DNA from: Xylographa opegraphella
Lineage: Eukaryota
Length of the DNA stretch: 64,000 nt
Assembly: GCA_022813865.1 (NCBI GenBank)
Contig: JALDZX010000020.1
Location: forward strand, 248,001 to 312,000
Direction of reading: 5' to 3'
Shown: positions 13,653 through 23,952 of the stretch, one piece after another
Numbering within the stretch: position 1 is the first letter of the stretch
Layout of the letters: each line of letters starts with the position of its first letter
The notes under the pieces: model-generated
The model's database searches: none
Told to the model about the DNA's origin: nothing
The model's input: the letters and a program-made list of their open reading frames with translations, nothing else
Position numbers and translations under genes: made by a program

Positions 13653-14328
13653 TCACACCGTCCTCCGATCCGTCATCACCCGCACCACGCTCCCCAGCCC
13701 CACCACCTCCACCAGCTTCTCATGCCAACTCAGCAGCACGCTCATCGCCTGCCCGCCGCCCTCCCCACCCCCTCTCGCCACGGCATGGATCTGCGAGAAG
13801 CCCGTCGGCTGCGGGTCCACGGTCCTGCCAGCCGCGGCCGGCGGCGGCTGCGACGAGTGCGACATGCCTTTGTACCTGTACGCCACGCCCGCAGCATCAG
13901 CTGTGTATTCCCATGACAACGTTCGTTCCTCCCCAGCCCCGCCCGGGCAGAGGGGCGCGGGAACAGCTCACTCACAGGTATTTCATCAACACGTCCAGGG
14001 CGTCCGCGCCCGCGGCGTCGGCGCTCATGCGCGCCAGCAGCGGCGACATCTCGGCCTGCTTGATGGACTGCAGGATCTCGACCACGGTGGCGAGGTGGAT
14101 GTCCTTGACGCCCGCGTCGCCGCCGTAGGGCGCGTTCTCCAGCGCGCCCCGCAGCGCGCCTTCGGCGTCGCCGCCGCGCAGGAGTTGGCGCACCTGTGCG
14201 GCGAGGGCGTGTGCGTCGCCGGTAGAGATGGGGGTTGGGGGGGGGGCGAGGGTGGTGGTGTCGAAGTTGGAGGGCGAGTCCGGGTCGAGGAGGTCGATGT
14301 TTATTGTGCGCCAGTTTGTGGTTGCCAT
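13653..14328 (-). CDS. arc15: Arp2/3 complex subunit 5 (ARPC5/Arc15); exons 14328-13976 and 13875-13653
   Basis: NWRTINIDLLDP, DVLMKYL|YKGM and MSVLLSWHEKLVEVVGLGSVVRVMTDRRTV. Confidence 0.92.
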
Positions 14329-14342
14329 TGTGGGGGGTGGGG

Positions 14343-14411
14343 NNNNNNNNNNNNNNNNNNNNNNNNNNNNNNNNNNNNNNNNNNNNNNNNNNNNNNNNNN
14401 NNNNNNNNNNN
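14343..14411. other. Assembly gap (N run) next to a G-rich tract
   Basis: Ns in the sequence, preceded by G-runs. Confidence 0.99.
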
Positions 14412-17400
14412 GGAAGGAGGGTTGGTGAGAGGTTGTGGGTAGAGGTTGTGGGTAACTGTAGAGTACGGTAGGTAGTTAAAGCTGTGAAATCCGCTAGGCC
14501 GGATAGATGATAGCGTAGCCCTGATTGTTTTTTCGGCTAGTGTGACGTGGTAGATAATCTACCTTATTCTCTCTCTAATCTACGATCCACCCAATCTCCC
14601 AATACAGCCGTTTTGCTATCGAGCTCCATGCTAGGAACAACATACGGTACACAGGTATCGTTCACAGCGCGGCCATGCGTCTGGAGTAGATCTCAACCGA
14701 TCACGCGGGATTGCCGACAGCAGTAGCCATCTGGCTCGTCTCCACAGCAGTGTTTAAAGTTGTGATGCACGGAATGGTTGTAGTTCGTCATATTGATCCG
14801 GCACGGCACATCCATTTAAATAAATTTTCTTAAATTCCAAACATTCAATTACGAATTATAAAAATTTGAATTTAATTCTCCCGTAGCCGACCCGCTGGAC
14901 AGATAGTTTGCATCATGAATTATGGTCGGACTCCATAGTGGTAGTGACAGCGACCACGAAGCTCATCGTAACTCCCAAAGGGCGCGGTGGATAACCATAG
15001 AAGCACAGCTTGAACAAACGCAAATTCTCACAAACAACGGGGCGCTGATGCCGGGCACCCACGAAGGAGATAAAGATACTCAAATAAGTCTACTCGACGC
15101 GATCGGTCGACCCTCGATTGCCTCATGAATCACCTCAAGGCAGACGGGCAATCACGGTCGAATCACCTGCTCACCTTCGGCATGCCACTTTCGTAAGATA
15201 CGCGGGCTTCCCATGGTTTCTGGCCTGACGATTCTTGGTTTTGGAGGGACGAGGTGGTTTTAGGAGCTTCGTGCGGGCGAGGACGCAGAGCCGGAACGGA
15301 CCCCGAGGTGAGTTTTCTTGGCAAGTAGCTTGGTGATGGAGCGATGTCGGGCTGCAGCGTATTCTTGGTAACTTGGTGGAGCTCAGGGAGAAAGTTACTG
15401 GCGAGCTTCTGGAAGCGCACGAGACGAGGACAGGAGCAGACGAAAAGGGGGTCGGATTTCGCAGTGGGTTGTATGAAAGGGGCGTTGGAGGATTTGGTGG
15501 ATTTCTAAAATCCAGATATGATCACCTTGGGTGATGGGCCTTGGGTGGGTGCAGCTGTTCGCCTTCGGTAATGGCTGAATTAGCAAACATCAATCATCCT
15601 GAGAGAATATGAGATTTATGGATCAGACCTCTCGACGCGACAACGTGCTGACTAATGGCAAGAAACCAGCGCATAGTGTGGGCGAACTGGCATTTTCAAC
15701 CCCCTCTCAGCCGTGACGCAGTCGGTTCAGAGACCGGAGGAATGCATCCCGATACCTGACCCAGAGCGCTTACCAGCGGCCGAAGCAAATCCCAAATGTC
15801 ATCCTCTGGGAGCCATGAAGGAAGAGGGGTCCAGGAGACTCGCTGATGGTGGCACACGGCTTTGCATTCCTTGCGCTATCAAAAAGGATTCGACAGCCGT
15901 TTCGTCGGAAGGATGGAAGTTGACATTGCCGGAGATAAGATTTCCACCAACCCGCCACTCGCTAGCTGCTAGGATATGGCCAATCCAGCTTTCCGGATGT
16001 TTTGTGCAGCAAGCACACGATGGGGGTCATCTGAGAGGGCTTTTTGGGATGCGAGAGTCAGCGCTCCGTGGGTCGTCCATCCGGTCTGGCCGGAGTCGCA
16101 CCGAGCGATTCGATGTAATGTAATATAATGTAATGTAAATGTATGTGCTCGTGCAAGCATCTGGGTCGATGCCAACGCAGCCTAGATTGTTCGATCCCGT
16201 CGTCGAAACGCGGCCCGGGCATGACCCAACGAAGTCCTTCAATCTTAAGTCCCACCACTCGATCGGTCTCGCCTGAGTGGCTCTGGGAGTGGCTCTGGAG
16301 ATTCCGTCTGGACAAACGCCGATGGAACGACAAAGCTTTTGCCAGATCGGGCAGGTGCCGGTTGGATAAGCATGTCCTGTGGGCGTCATCGCTGAGGCAC
16401 GGGTGCGTGGGATGTCAGTGGAACCCCCCACATGATTCTTCAGACAACAGGCTGGTCAGAGTCCGGACTGAGTCACGGTGGCGGAGGTGTATGAGCGGAT
16501 TATTGTCAGATACGAGGTGGGAAAGCAGATGCAGTCGGTGTGTAATAAAGTCATGATGGAACGAGATGCAAGCTGCAACGCGTGTAACACATAAATTCAC
16601 GAATCTTTTTATAGTAGTCTCCCTTACCTCTTACCAAACATAGTACATGCAGCATCAAATGCTTCCATTCTTCTCTGCCCGCCATCCCATGGAGAAGCAT
16701 GTACGCCGGTGCGGGTGCGGCCGGTCCGACAGGATGACAGGGACGTGTCAGCAACGAACTCGTGGCACACTACTGCCGTGTCACGCTGAGGGCGCGACGG
16801 CAAAAGGGGGGAAGGCGAAGGCGAAGGCGAAGGGCTGCGCAACGTTGATCCACGAAACAATGCAGTCATCATTCTTTCGGTGTCGCAGCCTCCTCCCCTT
16901 CACCGATCACGCACGTGGGGCGGGTGGTCGATTATGTAGCCTAATCTTAGGCTCTCTGCACCTAGTCTGTCTGCCACGAGGTTCACATGGTAACCCGCCC
17001 CCCATCTGCTCCGGCAAGGCTTAGCCACTACACCCTCCCCCCCCCCGAACTTGCGACGTTTCCGAGATGGACCGTTGCATTTCGGGGCAGCGTGAGTTCC
17101 TGCCCCGAGGCGGGGCGGTGGGAAGTGGTGGTGGCACTACCGATGTTGCAAGCTACCTTAGGTTGCCTACCTAGAGGTATTTTTCGGGACTACTACTCCG
17201 TATGGCATGTAGACTACCGTACCTACCTTACTGTGACGAAAGCCGTTTGAGGGAGGATTATTAAGGTGCACTAAGCACTACCCGTACTTGCCGGCCTCGG
17301 GCCTACGATGCTTAGCAATTTCTCCTGTAACGGGGGTGGCAAGCGAAGTCTGATGATATACCACAGTAGTACAGTAAGTACTACGTTCAATATCATCACA

Positions 17401-17617
17401 CCTTCTTGACTGGGTCGGCGAAGGCAGTTGGTGGAGCAGATTCCTGATTGGGGAAGCAGTGAGTGGTCCTGCGCCGTCCCGTCCGATCCAAACAGGTGTC
17501 GAAAAGGATGCATCTGCAGCGATGCACACATCGCCGGAATGTCACGGCGATCTGGAATGTCCAGCATCATCTCAATGCACGCTGCGCGATATTCCATCGT
17601 TTCGGTGGGCAGCGTGG

Positions 17618-17635
17618 CACACACACACACACACA
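17618..17635. repeat. (CA)9 microsatellite
   Basis: Read directly from the sequence. Confidence 0.9.
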
Positions 17636-20593
17636 CCAACGGAGATCGGGATTTGACGAGTACCGGTTCATGCCCAATGGCGTCGGGAATGCGTCCGCGA
17701 AACTTACTGACTACCTTAGGTCCCACATTCCTTTTTTGCACTCGCGTCGACAGCGTGCACGTCTGCCGGCCAATAGAACGGCACTGTGACCCATGATCCC
17801 TGAAGCAAAGGAAAATTCGGATTGACGAAATGCCTTGCCGTCGTCGAAACACTCCGTGATTATGATTGTGCTGCGTGGGGTGCGACAAGCTTCCTCATCC
17901 TTTGTTGGGCCGTCACGCCCGGTCATGCCACGTACCTCGCGACTTCTTTTGCGGCCTCAGAGGCTGTGTTCGATTTGTCACCGTCTAGGTAGACTCGACG
18001 ACGGAATGCGCTTCGACCAGCTCATTTGCCAGACCCTTTTAGTGCCGGCAGATGAACTTTGGGATTGACAGGTCATTAAGCAACGTTTAGCAAGCGAGTG
18101 TAAAAGCCGGCCGTCGTAGTCCTCGTGTCTTGACTTTTGGGGAGCAGCACCATGCCCGCCATTGAAGAAACTAGTCAGTGAAAAGGTTGGGGCCGGCGTT
18201 GCCCTTCAGACGAGCACATGGCAGCGGAAGCGCTCCCTGGTGCCTAGTGCGCAGGATCCCAGGATCTAGGAATGGGCTCGAAGCCGTTTAATTGTCGCGC
18301 GATGATTCCTATTGGAACACCGTCATGGACGGTATACGAACGGTAAGAATTAAGTCGACTTCCGCTCGGCGGAACGAGACAGCACATCCGATCCATGGGG
18401 CCAGTGGTGGTGGTGGTGCTATTGGGTTTCGCCATGGCAGTGGGAAAGGGATGGGTGTCCCTTCCGTCGACGCCGTTGGAGGAGCGAAGGAGCGCGTCGC
18501 AAGGCATCCACGCCGGGTCGCTGGTGATTATTGCGACACGACAACACGAACGACGACGTTGGCCGCGCTCGAGGCCAGCGTCGCACGAGGGCGTGGCCAG
18601 CGGTCATTGTGCATGCGCCAACGAGGCTGTCGGGGACCAGCAGTCCCCGATGCGATTCTTTCGATTCGTTCATGCGTGGCCATGGTGCCTTCTACCGCCC
18701 TTCTAGCCTGAGCAGATTGTGAGCACTAGGTTCGCGTGCAGGAGGCTCAGATGGAATCAATAATCTTGGGGTCTTGGGATGGCTCCCCAAGCCCGCAGCT
18801 TCGGGTTCAGCTAGACGCAGATACGTTTCTCGAGCCATGGTCGTGCTCGACCACCGTACACGCGACGGTTGCGCCTCTTCGACCCCGTCCCACGCGCACA
18901 GTCAGAAAGCTGACCACCCTCTTTGCGATAAGCCAGGCACTGCGTTGAGGCACCTCTGGCGTGGTCGTGTAAGGTGTTATTCTGGGAAGACAACCGGGCC
19001 GCGCCTCATCTCTCACGTCAAGTAGTGGACTCGAGCGAAGATTGGGCTTGAAATCGGGGGTTTATTTTGTAATTCTCTCAGCCGGCGGTCGCGGGCGCAC
19101 GTTTGATTGGAGGGTCAGATGTGCATTTTGGCCTCTCTTGTCCCGACTTACTGTGTATGAATCACACACACCTGTAAAGCCCCTTTGGGTTCAGTCATGC
19201 TACCATGTGTCGATGACTCCTTTTCCGATACCGCGACGGGCAAGGCAGCGACGATGAGCAGCATGCCAATGATAATCCCCGTCGTTGACCTTGTCCAGTC
19301 GCCCATCCCCGAGCAAGCGATCCCCGTCTGACCGCGTCCGCTGGGAATGAGGCTTGGAACGCTTTGAGGCAAAGTGGCTTCCACGCTGCTGCAGGTACCG
19401 GATTGGGGAGACCGGGATGCAGGATAGCTAGCAGCCTCCCCCCTCTTCTCGAGCCTTTAGCGGCCCCTAACCCGCTATCCAAGCCCCCAAAGTCCCCCAA
19501 GTCCCCTCAAGTGCTGAAAGGCCCTGGGAGAAAACGTCGAGCTTGCAGCTTCCGCTGGACATGGGTCATCGATGCTAAGGTGAGCTAGCCATCGCCGTAT
19601 CAGGCATCCATCCCAGTCATTCTCTCTCTCTCCATCGCCTGCAAATAATGAGAGCCTCTCTCTCCCCCCACCCCTGTTGCAGGAAGCGACGTCTGAAACG
19701 CAGTCTTCTTTGCCTCCCCGAAAGAAAAGAGACACTCACCCATGATCCAGTCAGGACGAAGACCAAAGATCCCGCCCGTGCGTCATCAGGGAAGAACCTA
19801 GACATGCCAGCCTTGAACATCCTCCTCCTCCCCTCCCCTAAACCACCCTTGCCCTTTCTCTACCTTACCTCTTCCCCCTACCTCACCTTACCTTACCCTA
19901 CCTTTACCGTACCCTGACTGCTCCCAACGCCCGTTCGGGCCTGTTTAGATTTACGTAGGGATCCAAGGGATAGCTAAATTTCCATCGACCCCCCCCAGAA
20001 TGTCTCGGTTGTCTAGGGGTATCGGCATGAGTTTATATTCCCCATCCGCCGCTCGTCCCAGACTCTTTGCTGGAAGGGAAAAAAAAACACATAAAAAAAC
20101 ACTCTCGTGCAGTGGTTTCATTTTCTTGTTCATTATTCTTTACCCGCGACACTCTTTGATTCTCTGCCTTACCGGTGTAACTCGGCCTGCCGTCCCCCCC
20201 CCCCCCTCCTCCTCCAGTGGACCAGGATCCACAAATCAAAAGGAACACAAAAGTCCATCTTTCCTTTCCGGTCAATCAAAAAGCGACCTGTCGCAGGATC
20301 GGTTCCGAAACTCTTAGGGCCCCCAAATCTGACGGCTTGAGAAAAGCGTTCCCCTGCCTGGCCCTATATTACATGAAGGTGCATCCAAAAGCATCCACCT
20401 CGCTCTCTCTCCACCAGAGTTGGCCGTATTCTAAAAACTTACCGATTCGTCTCACCTGCATCGAACGGATCTTCGGACATCCCAGGTGTCACATCCTCTT
20501 TCAGCTCGATCCGAGCTCTGTACAATCAGCAGCATAGCCCTCTCTACTTGTGAGTCAGCTCCCCGGCACTGGGCAGCCCGGCCGTTGATATGA

Positions 20594-20601
20594 TATATAA
20601 A
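20594..20601 (+). promoter_or_regulatory. TATA box (TATATAAA) followed by a CT-rich leader
   Basis: Canonical TATA about 140 nt upstream of ATG 20736, followed by a pyrimidine-rich tract typical of fungal transcription-start regions. Confidence 0.6.
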
Positions 20602-20735
20602 TTCCGTCCCAGTCTTCCTCAGTTGCATTCCTTCTTCATCACCCCCATCATCGGCTCTCACACTGACTCACGCTTCCACGCCTCCGCAGCTTCACTCTCG
20701 ATTTCATGATCACCAGACCAGACACATCAATCAAC

Positions 20736-20804
20736 ATGGGCAGAGGCGCATACGACACAACCGGCGTTCCCAAGCCGCAGAACCCTCCTTCCAAGCGGTA
20801 TTGA
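20736..20804 (+). CDS. Candidate micropeptide MGRGAYDTTGVPKPQNPPSKRY (22 aa unspliced; may be extended by splicing)
   Basis: TCAAC-ATG-G start context, upstream TATA and CT box, mostly C/G-ending codons, downstream branch site GACTAA and CAGTAG acceptor at 21015-21031. Below the ORF-track length cutoff. Confidence 0.5.
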   Translation: MGRGAYDTTGVPKPQNPPSKRY

Positions 20805-22244
20805 TCGCGGCCGACTCGCCGTGGTCTCGTGTCCCCGCGCCCGCCAGTGCCAGTGCCCAGCATCGGCATCCGCACCACTTCCAGGCCGCAATGCCCGCAA
20901 CACCTCTGCCAAACTTTGTTGTCGTTGCCTGTTCGCGGAAGGAGGGCGTTGGGGCGAAAGAGGCTACTCGAGGCGAGGTGAATGGTGCCATCTATTATTA
21001 CCGTGCATACGTGTGACTAATCATGCAGTAGGCTGACCACCCTAAGAAACACCGTCCATTGTCCATTCTTGCTACCACGGCGACTCTCCCCATCTTCGTT
21101 TCCGCTTCGACCACCACCGACTCCCTGTTCCTTCGGGCATTCCGGCCGTTTGCCTGTCTGCCACCACCAGCATCGGTACCAGTACCAATCGCGACCTTTT
21201 CAGCATTGCGCTGTATCACCACCTTTCCATTCCAGCGAGCGACCTTTCTGCGAACACACACGTGAGCGGTCTTTTTGTTTTTCGTTCTTGCATTGATTAC
21301 GACATTCGTTGCATTGGGTAGCCTTCCGGCAAAAGTGATAGACTTTCGGCGTTCTTGGGCATAGAATTGGGTGGACATCGGGTATGGGAAAAACAAGGAT
21401 ACCACTATAGACCTTTTGGAGACTTCACAGTCGATTGGATGGGAAACAGAGAATTTGTACCAGTACGCTTCAACCACGGGTTCAATACGGGCGGTTGGGA
21501 TCTTGCAGACTGGCAGAAACTTGCAGCTTCGGATTGCGCCTGATGTTCTGGAACGGTGCTGGGGAGACGAGGGCCGGGCTGGTCCCATGATATGATTATG
21601 CTTAGATTCCGCGGAATTAGATTGTCAATTTACAATATTTGCTCCTTCATTGCAGCTCAAAGTCCGCAAGTGGCCTCATGAACAGTATTGCGACGGTGAT
21701 CAAGACAAGCGACCTTAGAGGGGGGATGGGCAATAGGACACAAGCCAGTGTGCGCCAAGCGAAAAACGACACCACGTCGGACGCTGGATGGGATGGTCGA
21801 AAGAGGAATCTGGCTAGAAAGTATCGAGGAAGACTAAAAAGCGGCCAAAAATATCCTCCTCTGGCTGAAATCAAATGATCCAACGCTGCAGAAACTGCAG
21901 ACCGTATCCGAGCCACTAAAAGATTCCTGGGCTTCTTCGCTCCTCAAAGGCCAAGAAACCCGCTGTTAGGCTCTATTCGACGTCACTCGCAAACGAATCG
22001 TCGAACCAGCCGCCAAATTCCCCCAACGGATCCAATCAGCACCGTGAAGGCATACGATCCATCACTTCCGCCCTTATCGATATTCTATTCTCGACCTCAC
22101 GCCATCGTGCTTCGAGCTATAGCCGTTGCGAGATCAGGCCCTGAAGCCGCGGCGGACCGTAGTGCTTCAGCTCCACCCGGTCCCCGCACCCTCGTATCTG
22201 AGCCCGCGTTCGACCTCAGCTGTTTCACTCGCCCCGTAGCCTTG

Positions 22245-23118
22245 ATGGCAGAGTCCACGCCCAACATCCCGAAGCCGTCGAGCAGCGTGAAGCTGGTGCT
22301 GCTCGGGGAGGCCGCCGTAGGGAAGGTATGCTTCACGAGGGGGATATTGACGATTCTGTGTCTCCGCTAATCTGGCAACCTTACCAACAGTCGTCACTCG
22401 TCCTCCGCTTCGTGAACAACGACTTCCAAGAGAACAAAGAGCCGACTATTGGCGGTACTTAACCTCCTTCGCGCTAGAGCGTTGTAAGAATGGGAAAACT
22501 AATACGAGACTTGTCACTTCTGCAGCTGCGTTCCTGACCCAGAAATGCCAACTCCCAACGCGGACCATCAAGTTCGAAATCTGGGACACCGCCGGTCAAG
22601 AGCGGTTCGCCAGTCTCGCTCCGATGTACTATCGGAATGCACAGTCGGCCCTGGTCGTCTATGACCTGACCAAGCCGACCTCGCTCATCAAAGCCAAGCA
22701 CTGGGTTGCGGAACTACAGCGCCAAGCCTCTCCCGGCATCGTTATTGCTCTGGTGGGAAACAAACTCGATTTGACAGCCCAAAGTGGGGGCGAAAGCGAG
22801 TCAACGGGAGGCGAGGATGGGGAGGCCGATGGCGAAGCCGTGGAAGGGGATGCGAGGAAGGTAAGCACAAAGGAGGCAAGATCGTACGCCGAAGAGGAGG
22901 GCTTGCTCTTCTTTGAGACAAGCGCCAAAGAAGGAACCGGTGTACAAGAAGTCTTCACGGCTATCGCGAGCGCCATCCCCGAAACACAACTAAAAGGGGC
23001 GCGAGGAGGGCCAGGAGCGGGAGCGGCTATCGCTGGAGCACAGGCGAGGTCGGACGAAGGGCGCGTCAATCTGACTGGGGCCGGACAACAAGGTGCGAAA
23101 GAAGGGTGTGCATGCTGA
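22245..23118 (+). CDS. vps21: Rab5-family GTPase (Vps21/Ypt51-like); exons 22245-22325, 22391-22454, 22526-23118
   Basis: [44 protein letters not shown] and a C-terminal CAC prenylation motif. Confidence 0.93.
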
Positions 23119-23952
23119 GTTCCATCAAATTTGGGTGTGTGCAGATGGGATGAAGATGAGAAGTGCAGAGTGATTGGCGGTGTTGCATGAAGATGCACGA
23201 CCGTTTACGTCCGTTCCTCCATCGTTTGGAGCGTTCATATCCGATTTGAGAGTCCGATCATCATCCCTGATAGGTGTGGGCGTTTGGGCAACATCGGCTT
23301 GTTTAATTCCGTAGATTGGTCAAAGAAAACCTCGTCGGCCATGGTTACACCTACCACATATATCCTACAGCGCGAGTGAGTGATCCAAACCGTTATGCCG
23401 GTCTCGGGATCATACTTTTGCATGTACTTCTATATGGTCGAGTTTGCAGTACCTCTGTATGCATGCCTGCGCTCGACCGAGTAGCAATATGTGGTAGCCG
23501 AAGAAGTCCACCAATTAGAGATACCGGGTATGGTCTTGGCGTAGGCAACGGCACTGCAGTTGAGACATCCGAACTTGATGGTTCTAGCATCGTGAGGAAT
23601 CGAATAGATCACCGGGCTTTGTTATCAAAGAACTGTAGTCGGACGCTTTAGGGCAAGCCTGCGGTGTTCGCGATGCAGGCAACAAAAAGTCCACGCCCTA
23701 CTCCGGACTTCTGAAGCGCGACGTCATTTTCTTTTTTTGGCCGTGCCTTTCGCTTTTGTGATTTTTCTTGGTTCGCTGTCCTTCGAACAAAAACACACGT
23801 TATGCAATAATGCTCACTTCCAGCAACGACCGGGCACGGCAGCTGTCCTTTTGTCCATTGTTTGTGTCAGCGAGGAAGTCCTAGCAGACCCTATCTCAAT
23901 CTATCGGACCTGTCGCACCTCTCTCACTTACACATATCCTCTCTGTACCACG

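What the first reader, a model, noticed from the sequence alone, without database searches (positions are those of the whole stretch)
20594..21296. Hidden micropeptide gene at the end of a 6-kb gene-poor stretch
Seen: TATATAAA (20594), a CT-rich leader, then TCAAC-ATG-G opening MGRGAYDTTGVPKPQNPPSKRY* (20736-20804). An in-frame weaker ATG lies at 20706. A strong branch site and tandem CAGTAG acceptor (21015-21031) imply a spliced transcript. A GTATTG donor at 20798 would remove the stop and extend the frame to 21296 (about 109 aa); a GTGAAT donor at 20978 would give a 3'-UTR intron. Inference: a highly expressed, heavily regulated small peptide or peptide-coding RNA that gene callers would miss. 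I do not recognise the family.
Basis: partly seen in the sequence, partly recalled or inferred. Interest (0 to 1): 0.7.

Follow-up and report, generated by a model that had tools for sequence, protein, structure and literature searches.

The report
Conserved 32-residue fungal micropeptide gene
This is a real, tiny gene that is usually missed or wrongly modelled: filamentous fungi of at least four classes keep a 30-33-residue peptide with a nearly unchanged core, one published study counted the Neurospora copy as a genus-specific orphan, and what the peptide does is unknown.

Summary
The ORF starts at the 'weaker' ATG 20706 and encodes 32 aa (20706-20804). 57 of 65 non-redundant homologous loci have that upstream in-frame ATG. 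The second Met is replaced in 35 of 142 cores, mostly by Phe. The TATATAAA lies inside a 5'-UTR intron (20550-20689); a homologue shows the matching intron spliced out of a 485-nt AUG-free leader. The 109-aa form has no counterpart. The gene stands alone: vps21 follows in 11 and arc15 in 12 of 28 loci. Named homologues come from four Pezizomycotina classes, nearly all 'hypothetical'; 14 of 128 proteins repeat the core. No Pfam family and no paper with the motif or gene name in its text. The Neurospora orthologue NCU03451 is listed as a lineage-specific orphan; it is expressed, falls 8.5-fold during germination and is lower in an adv-1 deletion. Best reading: a disordered cytosolic peptide carrying a docking motif. 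The mechanism is inferred, not shown.

The parts
20365..20370 (+). Candidate TATA-like element of the upstream promoter (inferred)
   Evidence: TATATT just before the last upstream ATG (20373), 185 nt before the 5' donor. Not tested by reads; most homologues show no TATA at a fixed distance.
20376..20549 (+). Non-coding exon 1, AUG-free; 5' end not mapped
   Evidence: AUG-free for 177 nt here; at least 150 nt in 26 of 27 loci with a donor, against 9% of 540 control positions (3 loci without a recognisable donor left out). Spliced homologue L056 has a 485-nt AUG-free leader.
20550..20689 (+). 5'-UTR intron, 140 nt (donor GTGAGTCAG, branch CTGAC 20663, acceptor CAG)
   Evidence: Signature in 33 of 51 loci against 3% of 960 control windows. 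L056 lacks exactly the 282-nt GTGAGTCAG...CAG segment of its 99.6% identical partner L024.
20594..20601 (+). TATATAAA inside the 5' intron; possibly an alternative internal promoter together with TGAGTCA at 20551
   Evidence: TATAWA in 33 of 51 and TGA[GC]TCA in 23 of 51 loci within 250 nt of the start, against 0-2 of 22-40 in upstream windows. No control against other introns was run. In L024 the TATA-like run lies in the intron that L056 lacks.
20706..20804 (+). Coding sequence, 32 aa: MITRPDTSINMGRGAYDTTGVPKPQNPPSKRY*
   Evidence: first AUG of the predicted spliced RNA; 57 of 65 loci have this start 30, 33 or 36 nt before the second ATG; homologues are 29-36 aa.
20706..20732 (+). Variable N-terminal segment (consensus M-I-x-R-E/D)
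   Evidence: I 31, R 30, E/D 32 of 37 loci with 30-nt spacing; pN/pS 0.56 over 18 disjoint pairs.
20733..20765 (+). Conserved core [ND]-x-G-R-G-[ASG]-Y-D-T-[TS]-G; the second ATG (20736) is the x position
   Evidence: 142 cores in 128 proteins: R, G, D 142, first G 141, last G 137; x = Met 107, Phe 20, others 15 (Tyr was the anchor and cores were filtered at 6 of 10 identity). Asn/Asp stays before x in 32 of 36 cores where x is not Met.
20766..20801 (+). Pro/Lys-rich basic tail
   Evidence: Not fixed by the search pattern: Lys 56 of 57 and Pro 56 of 57 at core positions +12 and +13; pN/pS 0.10. Tail length 9-14 residues.
20815..20977 (+). Long irregular stem-loop closing the stretch from the stop codon to the 3' donor (predicted)
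   Evidence: 26 end-to-end pairs here, reached by 3% of 60 shuffles; 15 or more pairs in 19 of 28 loci against 5 of 71 and 27 of 128 control segments. Against: folding energy is ordinary (z -0.4; z -1.4), only 9 of 28 loci reach p<=0.05, and one of two consensus folds showed no compensatory pair.
20978..21028 (+). 3'-UTR intron, 51 nt (54 with the second acceptor), 173 nt after the stop (predicted)
   Evidence: Donor aligns with GTACGT/GTAAGT donors of six relatives; signature in 27 of 46 loci against 25% of controls.
21029..21430 (+). 3' UTR with short blocks shared with relatives; 3' end not mapped
   Evidence: Alignment with six relatives; L056 carries about 1.2 kb after the stop.
14340..20364 (.). 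Gene-poor upstream region, probably this gene's control region (inferred)
   Evidence: No window ORF in it matches any homologous locus, and no shared upstream gene cluster appeared among the loci except between close relatives. Weakly shared words GCTGCAGGTAC (19388) and TGCGTCA (19779): 11 and 10 of 30 loci, hardly above the background maximum of 7 of 21. No Rfam match.

Best explanation
A stand-alone, single-copy protein-coding gene of filamentous ascomycetes. Shown or nearly so: a spliced RNA with a long AUG-free leader whose first AUG (20706) opens a 32-codon ORF under purifying selection. Inferred: the product is an unfolded, unsecreted peptide that works in trans as a motif carrier. Its near-invariant 11-residue core docks on one conserved cellular protein, as an inhibitor, adaptor or modified substrate, and the Pro/Lys tail is a rigid basic spacer or second weak contact. 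Also inferred: dose is what is regulated, through a multi-kilobase upstream region, two UTR introns and a 3'-UTR intron position that in Neurospora can send an mRNA to nonsense-mediated decay. Tandem-repeat homologues would raise dose or avidity. I put the gene and peptide at about 0.95 and this mechanism at about 0.5.
For: Coding: Arg at 113 of 113 loci, with 12 of 12 AGN codons being AGR although the pattern allowed Ser; all four third bases used at Gly, Ala and Thr codons; start spacing only 30, 33 or 36 nt; pN/pS 0.10 outside the pattern. Start; Sordaria macrospora SMACR_12796 is annotated at 33 aa with Phe at the second-Met position. Splicing and leader. Stand-alone: downstream gene differs; single copy in G000. 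Unsecreted and unfolded: highest 9-residue hydropathy 1.33, CaaX in 0 of 57; AlphaFold2 gives no secondary structure, pTM 0.16. Acting in trans: core-to-stop distance varies from 9 to 14 residues and cores are repeated in 14 of 128 proteins. Regulation: NCU03451 relative level 8.5, 6.2, 1.6, 1 over four germination stages on Bird medium; listed as lower in the adv-1 deletion; NMD through 3'-UTR introns in Neurospora (PMC7746235 passage citing Zhang and Sachs 2015).
Against: No partner was identified and no peptide was detected. No reads for this genome. That L056 is RNA-derived is inferred from the exact intron loss. The window peptide lacks the class I and II SH3 motifs found in 28 and 37 of 57 homologues. 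The second ATG has a purine at -3 in 57 of 57 loci against 41 of 57 for the first, so a shorter product by leaky scanning is possible. Repeated cores behind acidic spacers also fit a processed precursor. Neurospora expression values rest on an 84-aa, 359-bp gene model that is probably wrong. The 3' intron and NMD are predictions.
Confidence: 0.5

Rival explanations
1. Leader-core-follower precursor: the peptide is cut near the conserved Asn/Asp-x, perhaps modified, and the released core is the active unit, as an intracellular messenger or a non-classically exported signal.
For: Asn/Asp kept before x in 32 of 36 non-Met cores. Repeats with acidic spacers, and three two-core paralogues in Anthostomella pinea. 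Earlier AI notes describe separate seven-codon fungal ORFs with a similar G-R-G-x-Y-[DN] start (unchecked). Lower in the adv-1 deletion.
Against: No signal peptide or CaaX. Neighbours are vps21 and arc15, not tailoring enzymes or transporters. The core is constant and the leader variable, the reverse of most RiPP families (recalled). x tolerates M, F, L, S, W, Q, Y, T, so no single protease specificity is evident. The seven-codon family was not found in G000 by two patterns (assembly may be incomplete).
Confidence: 0.22
2. The main product is the 22-aa peptide from the second ATG, with Met removal exposing the Gly-Arg-Gly end.
For: Met at x in 107 of 142 cores; purine at -3 in 57 of 57; a TATA-like element inside the intron could give short RNAs that bypass the first ATG; some protein models begin at this Met.
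Against: 35 of 142 cores have no Met there, including Neurospora, Sordaria and Trichoderma. The -3 purine follows from the Asn/Asp codon, which is kept without the Met. The upstream ATG is in frame in 57 of 57 intact loci and is the first AUG of the spliced RNA.
Confidence: 0.1
3. A cis-acting nascent peptide (uORF or arrest peptide) that stalls the ribosome at the proline run and controls its own RNA or a downstream gene.
For: About 30 codons, polyproline just before the stop, first AUG of a long leader, predicted stem-loop and intron after the stop.
Against: The downstream gene differs between loci (vps21 11, arc15 12, neither 5, of 28). No shared ORF lies between. Core-to-stop distance varies and cores occur in tandem.
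Confidence: 0.1
4. The RNA is the functional molecule and the ORF is incidental.
For: Long UTRs with shared blocks, two UTR introns and a predicted stem-loop.
Against: Free synonymous change with fixed residues; no Rfam match; sensitive blastn of 14600-22250 against 56 loci found nothing at E<=0.5 outside the ORF but one simple repeat.
Confidence: 0.04
5. A longer protein of about 109-119 aa made by splicing from GTATTG at 20798.
For: The frame is open to 21296; public models of some homologues also have long tails, such as the 84-aa NCU03451 model.
Against: The extension has no hit in 56 loci; the long tails of public models are unlike one another; relatives stop at the same place.
Confidence: 0.02

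Closest known systems
Uncharacterised database entries of the same family: Neurospora crassa NCU03451, Sordaria macrospora SMACR_12796, Colletotrichum tanaceti CTA1_1554, Fusarium venenatum FVEN_g13095, Venturia inaequalis Vi05172_g7821, Penicillium steckii PENSTE_c014G08496
   Same: Same leader, core and tail; these are the orthologues or close homologues.
   Different: All are unnamed. Many models have false extensions. NCU03451 is modelled at 84 aa and listed as a Neurospora lineage-specific orphan in PMC10684091 (supplement rows and passages seen), which these data contradict.
Conserved small-ORF (microprotein) genes in general; tarsal-less/polished rice as the repeated-motif example (recalled, not read here)
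   Same: Very short ORF on a long RNA, deep conservation of a short motif, repeats of the motif in some lineages.
   Different: No sequence relation. Repeats here lie within one ORF, not in separate ORFs. No target is known.
Fungal RiPP and Kex2-processed repeat precursors (dikaritins, MSDIN family) (features recalled)
   Same: Short leader, core and follower; repeated cores in some homologues.
   Different: No signal peptide, no tailoring-enzyme neighbours in single-copy loci, constant core with variable leader.
Conserved-peptide uORFs and arrest peptides, such as the arginine attenuator peptide of Neurospora arg-2 (recalled)
   Same: 20-35 codons, residue-level conservation, first AUG of the RNA.
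   Different: No fixed downstream main ORF; variable core-to-stop distance.
Seven-codon GRGGYN micro-ORF arrays of filamentous fungi
   Same: Core begins G-R-G-x-Y-[DN].
   Different: Separate 7-8-codon ORFs at another locus, without leader, T-T-G or Pro/Lys tail; not found in G000. Homology is not established.

Membership tests
Conserved small-ORF protein gene | ORF under 100 codons with residue-level purifying selection | tested here: met
Conserved small-ORF protein gene | Transcribed and spliced | tested here: met
   In homologues only: spliced L056 against L024; NCU03451 read counts. No reads for this genome.
Conserved small-ORF protein gene | Peptide detected or ribosome footprints | not testable with these tools
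   No Ribo-seq or proteomics on hand.
Conserved-peptide uORF / arrest peptide | Same main ORF downstream in all species | tested here: not met
   vps21 11, arc15 12, neither 5, of 28 loci.
Conserved-peptide uORF / arrest peptide | Fixed distance from critical residues to the stop | tested here: not met
   9-14 residues; tandem cores.
Dikaritin / Kex2-processed repeat precursor | N-terminal signal peptide | tested here: not met
   Highest 9-residue hydropathy 1.33 in 57 peptides; a crude test, no signal-peptide predictor was run.
Dikaritin / Kex2-processed repeat precursor | Repeated cores | tested here: inconclusive
   One core in this gene; two or three in 14 of 128 homologues.
Fungal RiPP precursor (any class) | Clustered tailoring enzyme or protease | tested here: not met
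   Neighbours are a Rab GTPase, p16-Arc, a methyltransferase and a FIT protein. Context of the multi-repeat paralogues could not be fetched.
a-factor-type pheromone | C-terminal CaaX | tested here: not met
   0 of 57.
SH3-ligand peptide | Class I or class II PxxP motif | tested here: inconclusive
   28 and 37 of 57 homologues; the window peptide has only a bare PxxP.
tarsal-less-type polycistronic smORF gene | Several separate ORFs with the same motif on one RNA | tested here: not met
   One match per locus in the 80 loci listed; one match in G000.
Any Pfam family | Profile match over the curated cut-off | tested here: not met
   0 families for the window peptide; none over cut-off for 14 homologues.

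The most novel reading that the evidence does not exclude
The gene encodes a leaderless precursor of a peptide signal shared by filamentous ascomycetes, cut at the conserved Asn/Asp-x and exported without a signal peptide. In the boldest form it is the still unidentified signal of the germling-fusion cell dialogue, which works across species. It fits a core unchanged across classes, no intact copy outside filamentous ascomycetes among named hits, expression in early germination and lower levels without ADV-1. Against it: no export route, not listed in any pp-1 column, no mention in the first 12 of 21 supplements of an ADV-1 target paper, and pH has been proposed as the initiating signal (bioRxiv 10.1101/2025.06.24.661326; abstract and introduction read).
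Probability: 0.06. Interest if true: 0.95.

Novelty: new variant of a known kind. Interest (0 to 1): 0.7.

Why it matters
An 11-residue motif kept almost unchanged across four classes of filamentous fungi implies a conserved binding partner and a process that annotation has hidden. The Neurospora copy already has a gene number, so deletion, tagging and pull-down are immediately possible. It is also a concrete case of a published lineage-specific orphan that is in fact old and widely shared, missed because the peptide is too short and its models are wrong. The tandem-repeat homologues give a natural handle on which part is active.

Tried and rejected
RNA runs: none was listed for 20594-21500, so no reads were laid; this is no evidence either way. 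Single-sequence protein search with the 45-aa open frame found nothing; the 'longer' repeat timed out. A search of 110-2000-aa proteins with the three-core P0002 scored none of 86 candidates at E<=1 (weak evidence). ESM Atlas: no usable hit for two queries. Rfam: 0 matches at E<=1 in 14000-23500. PDB: one hit at E 1.9, a loop of yeast Slh1 helicase with 9 of 10 residues like the core; this genome's two large Sec63-domain (Brr2/Slh1-type) helicases read G-R-P-Q-[FY]-[DQ] there, so I treat it as chance. Two phmmer hits (P0010, P0018) are unrelated bacterial repeat proteins and were dropped. Eight of 65 loci lack the in-frame upstream ATG, most also the tail; I read them as decayed copies and left them out of later counts. 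A 63-nt 'gap' between L020 and L041 was a contig end, not a spliced 3' intron. The 41-codon ORF at 20891 has no Pfam or locus hit. A recalled ADV-1/PRO1-type site occurs once at 15766 and upstream in 2 of 57 loci: no support. Viral contigs: 0 matches. Prokaryote genomes: 2 matches, both complete fungal-type ORFs, probably mis-binned contigs. The inversion idea for the two gene orders could not be tested. No complex prediction was run, for want of a defensible partner. Literature: full-text searches for MGRGAYDT (12), GRGAYDTTG/GAYDTTG/NMGRG (27), SMAC_12796 (37), NCU03451 (41) and GRGGYN/GRGAYD/GRGSYD/GRGGYD (52) gave no fungal paper; general searches were seen as listings only. Supplements without a hit: PMC6794485 (one of 10 files unreadable), PMC7746235, PMC10578600, PMC5217103 (12 of 21 files). 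Subscription journals and bioRxiv supplements are not covered.

Full report
Setting. The window comes from a 24.7-Mb, 241-contig assembly (G000:C113:248001-312000); the introns and the named homologues mark it as a filamentous ascomycete. The finding lies between arc15 (p16-Arc, minus strand, start 14328) and a vps21-like Rab GTPase (plus strand, start 22245), with a methyltransferase and a FIT gene further out. The stretch and the peptide are single-copy in G000.

Observation. With the window they collapse to 65 non-redundant groups. These ten residues are invariant there by construction, so I rely on positions the pattern did not fix. The pattern allowed Ser at the Arg codon, yet 113 of 113 are Arg. 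Lys and Pro at +12 and +13 are kept in 56 of 57 intact loci each. pN/pS is 0.10 for six codons after the core and 0.56 for the nine before it, over 18 disjoint pairs, uncorrected.

True start. 57 of 65 groups have an in-frame ATG 30, 33 or 36 nt upstream, never another spacing. The eight others mostly lack the tail too and were set aside as decayed copies. Protein searches that do not fix the Met (phmmer, 30 hits; profile search, 203 hits of 8000 candidates scored, 120 listed) gave 142 cores in 128 proteins. The second Met is Met in 107, Phe in 20 and another residue in 15. The Asn or Asp before it stays in 32 of 36 non-Met cores, so the good 'Kozak' context is largely a protein constraint. 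The product is the 32-mer from 20706. A shorter co-product by leaky scanning is not excluded.

Transcript. Its signature is in 33 of 51 loci against 3% of controls. L024 and L056 are 99.6% identical except that L056 lacks exactly 282 nt from GTGAGTCAG to CAG, with a TATA-like run inside; L056 has 485 nt without AUG before the ORF and about 1.2 kb after it. I take L056 as RNA-derived, which is an inference. An AUG-free stretch of 150 nt or more precedes the donor in 26 of 27 loci against 9% of controls. The window's TATATAAA is therefore intronic. TATA-like and TGAGTCA words are common there (33 and 23 of 51), so an internal second promoter remains possible and untested. A 3'-UTR intron at 20978-21028 aligns with donors in six relatives but its signature is weaker (27 of 46 against 25%) and no spliced copy was found. 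The stretch from stop to donor tends to close into one long stem (19 of 28 loci against 5 of 71 and 27 of 128 controls; loci are related, so the p-value overstates). Folding energy is ordinary and covariation is thin (0 of 10 and 3 of 7 pairs). The 109-aa form has no counterpart.

Context. Among 28 loci with at least 2.5 kb downstream, vps21 follows in 11, arc15 in 12 and neither in 5. One locus has the window's full order. The gene is thus no uORF of one partner. An inversion of the gene with its upstream desert between a divergent arc15/vps21 pair would explain both orders; I could not test it.

Range and knowledge. Named hits are Sordariomycetes, Dothideomycetes, Eurotiomycetes and Leotiomycetes (class assignment of the genera from my own knowledge); no yeast or basidiomycete is among the 120 listed. 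Names are 'hypothetical' or locus tags, apart from one automatic 'dihydrofolate reductase' label on a 47-aa cluster. Fourteen of 128 proteins carry two or three cores, often with acidic spacers, several from Xylariales. Pfam, PDB, the Atlas and five full-text searches gave nothing usable. The Neurospora orthologue is NCU03451. In PMC10684091 (supplement rows and passages read) it is one of the lineage-specific 'orphans', '1 intron/84AA/359bp'. Its level is 8.5, 6.2, 1.6, 1 over four germination stages on Bird medium, 3.0, 1.3, 1, 2.5 on maple medium and zero at six of eight sexual time points. It is listed as lower in the adv-1 deletion and higher in the mat 1-2-1 mutant, and in no pp-1 column. 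In PMC7084071 (supplement rows and passages) baseMean is 157 and 398, unchanged in the vib-1 deletion, with a VIB-1 DAP-seq peak 2758 nt from the ATG. An earlier AI note reached the same family from another genome (e1-7568269); it is not independent evidence.

Mechanism. Shown: selection on the peptide, its start, a spliced AUG-free leader in a homologue, independence from the downstream gene, and regulated expression in Neurospora. Inferred: the peptide is unfolded and has no signal peptide, membrane stretch or CaaX. An almost fixed 11-residue core between a loose leader and a low-complexity tail is what a short linear motif looks like, so I favour a cytosolic or nuclear regulator that docks on one conserved protein (0.5). 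A processed precursor is the main rival (0.22), with a fusion signal as its boldest form (0.06). A 22-aa main product (0.1), a cis-acting stalling peptide (0.1), a functional RNA (0.04) and the long spliced protein (0.02) follow. The 3'-UTR intron could keep the RNA short-lived through NMD, as described for Neurospora (PMC7746235 passage); that is untested here.

Verdict. A real, undescribed, widely conserved micropeptide family. Interest 0.7; new variant of a known kind.

Noticed in passing
L122:601-638 and L123:601-638: Two bacterial genome bins hold a complete fungal-type copy of this ORF; probably fungal contigs binned by mistake.
   Followed up: partly
L005, L028, L045, L055, L060, L091, L107, L113: Eight loci keep the core but lack the in-frame upstream ATG and mostly the tail; several have an out-of-frame ATG near -29. 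Probably decayed duplicates; in L060 the core sits in or beside a 1064-codon open frame.
   Followed up: partly
P0003, P0004, P0013, P0014, P0017, P0019, P0052-P0055, P0119, P0120: Two- and three-core forms with acidic spacers; three paralogues in Anthostomella pinea. Their gene neighbourhoods could not be fetched and may show a separate, precursor-like branch.
   Followed up: partly
window 20550-20601: The 5' donor reads GTGAGTCAG in 19 of 51 loci, longer than a donor needs; it contains TGAGTCA, a bZIP (Gcn4/CpcA-type, recalled) site, and in several loci a second donor follows at once.
   Followed up: partly
window 19580-19682: A further GTGAGC donor-like site and a pyrimidine-rich stretch ending in CAG upstream; may be another leader intron. 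No clear branch site.
   Followed up: no
window 19830-19920: Pyrimidine-rich run of CCTTA/CCTAC-like short repeats in the upstream region.
   Followed up: no
window 14343-14411: Run of N (assembly gap) just upstream of the arc15 start codon.
   Followed up: no
L024, about 1160-1300 nt upstream of the core ATG: A long near-perfect inverted repeat in the upstream region of this homologue, and a TATA-like element about 60 nt before the start of the spliced partner L056.
   Followed up: no
P0022 cluster: Five of eight members of a cluster of this family carry the automatic label 'dihydrofolate reductase', which the sequence does not support.
   Followed up: no
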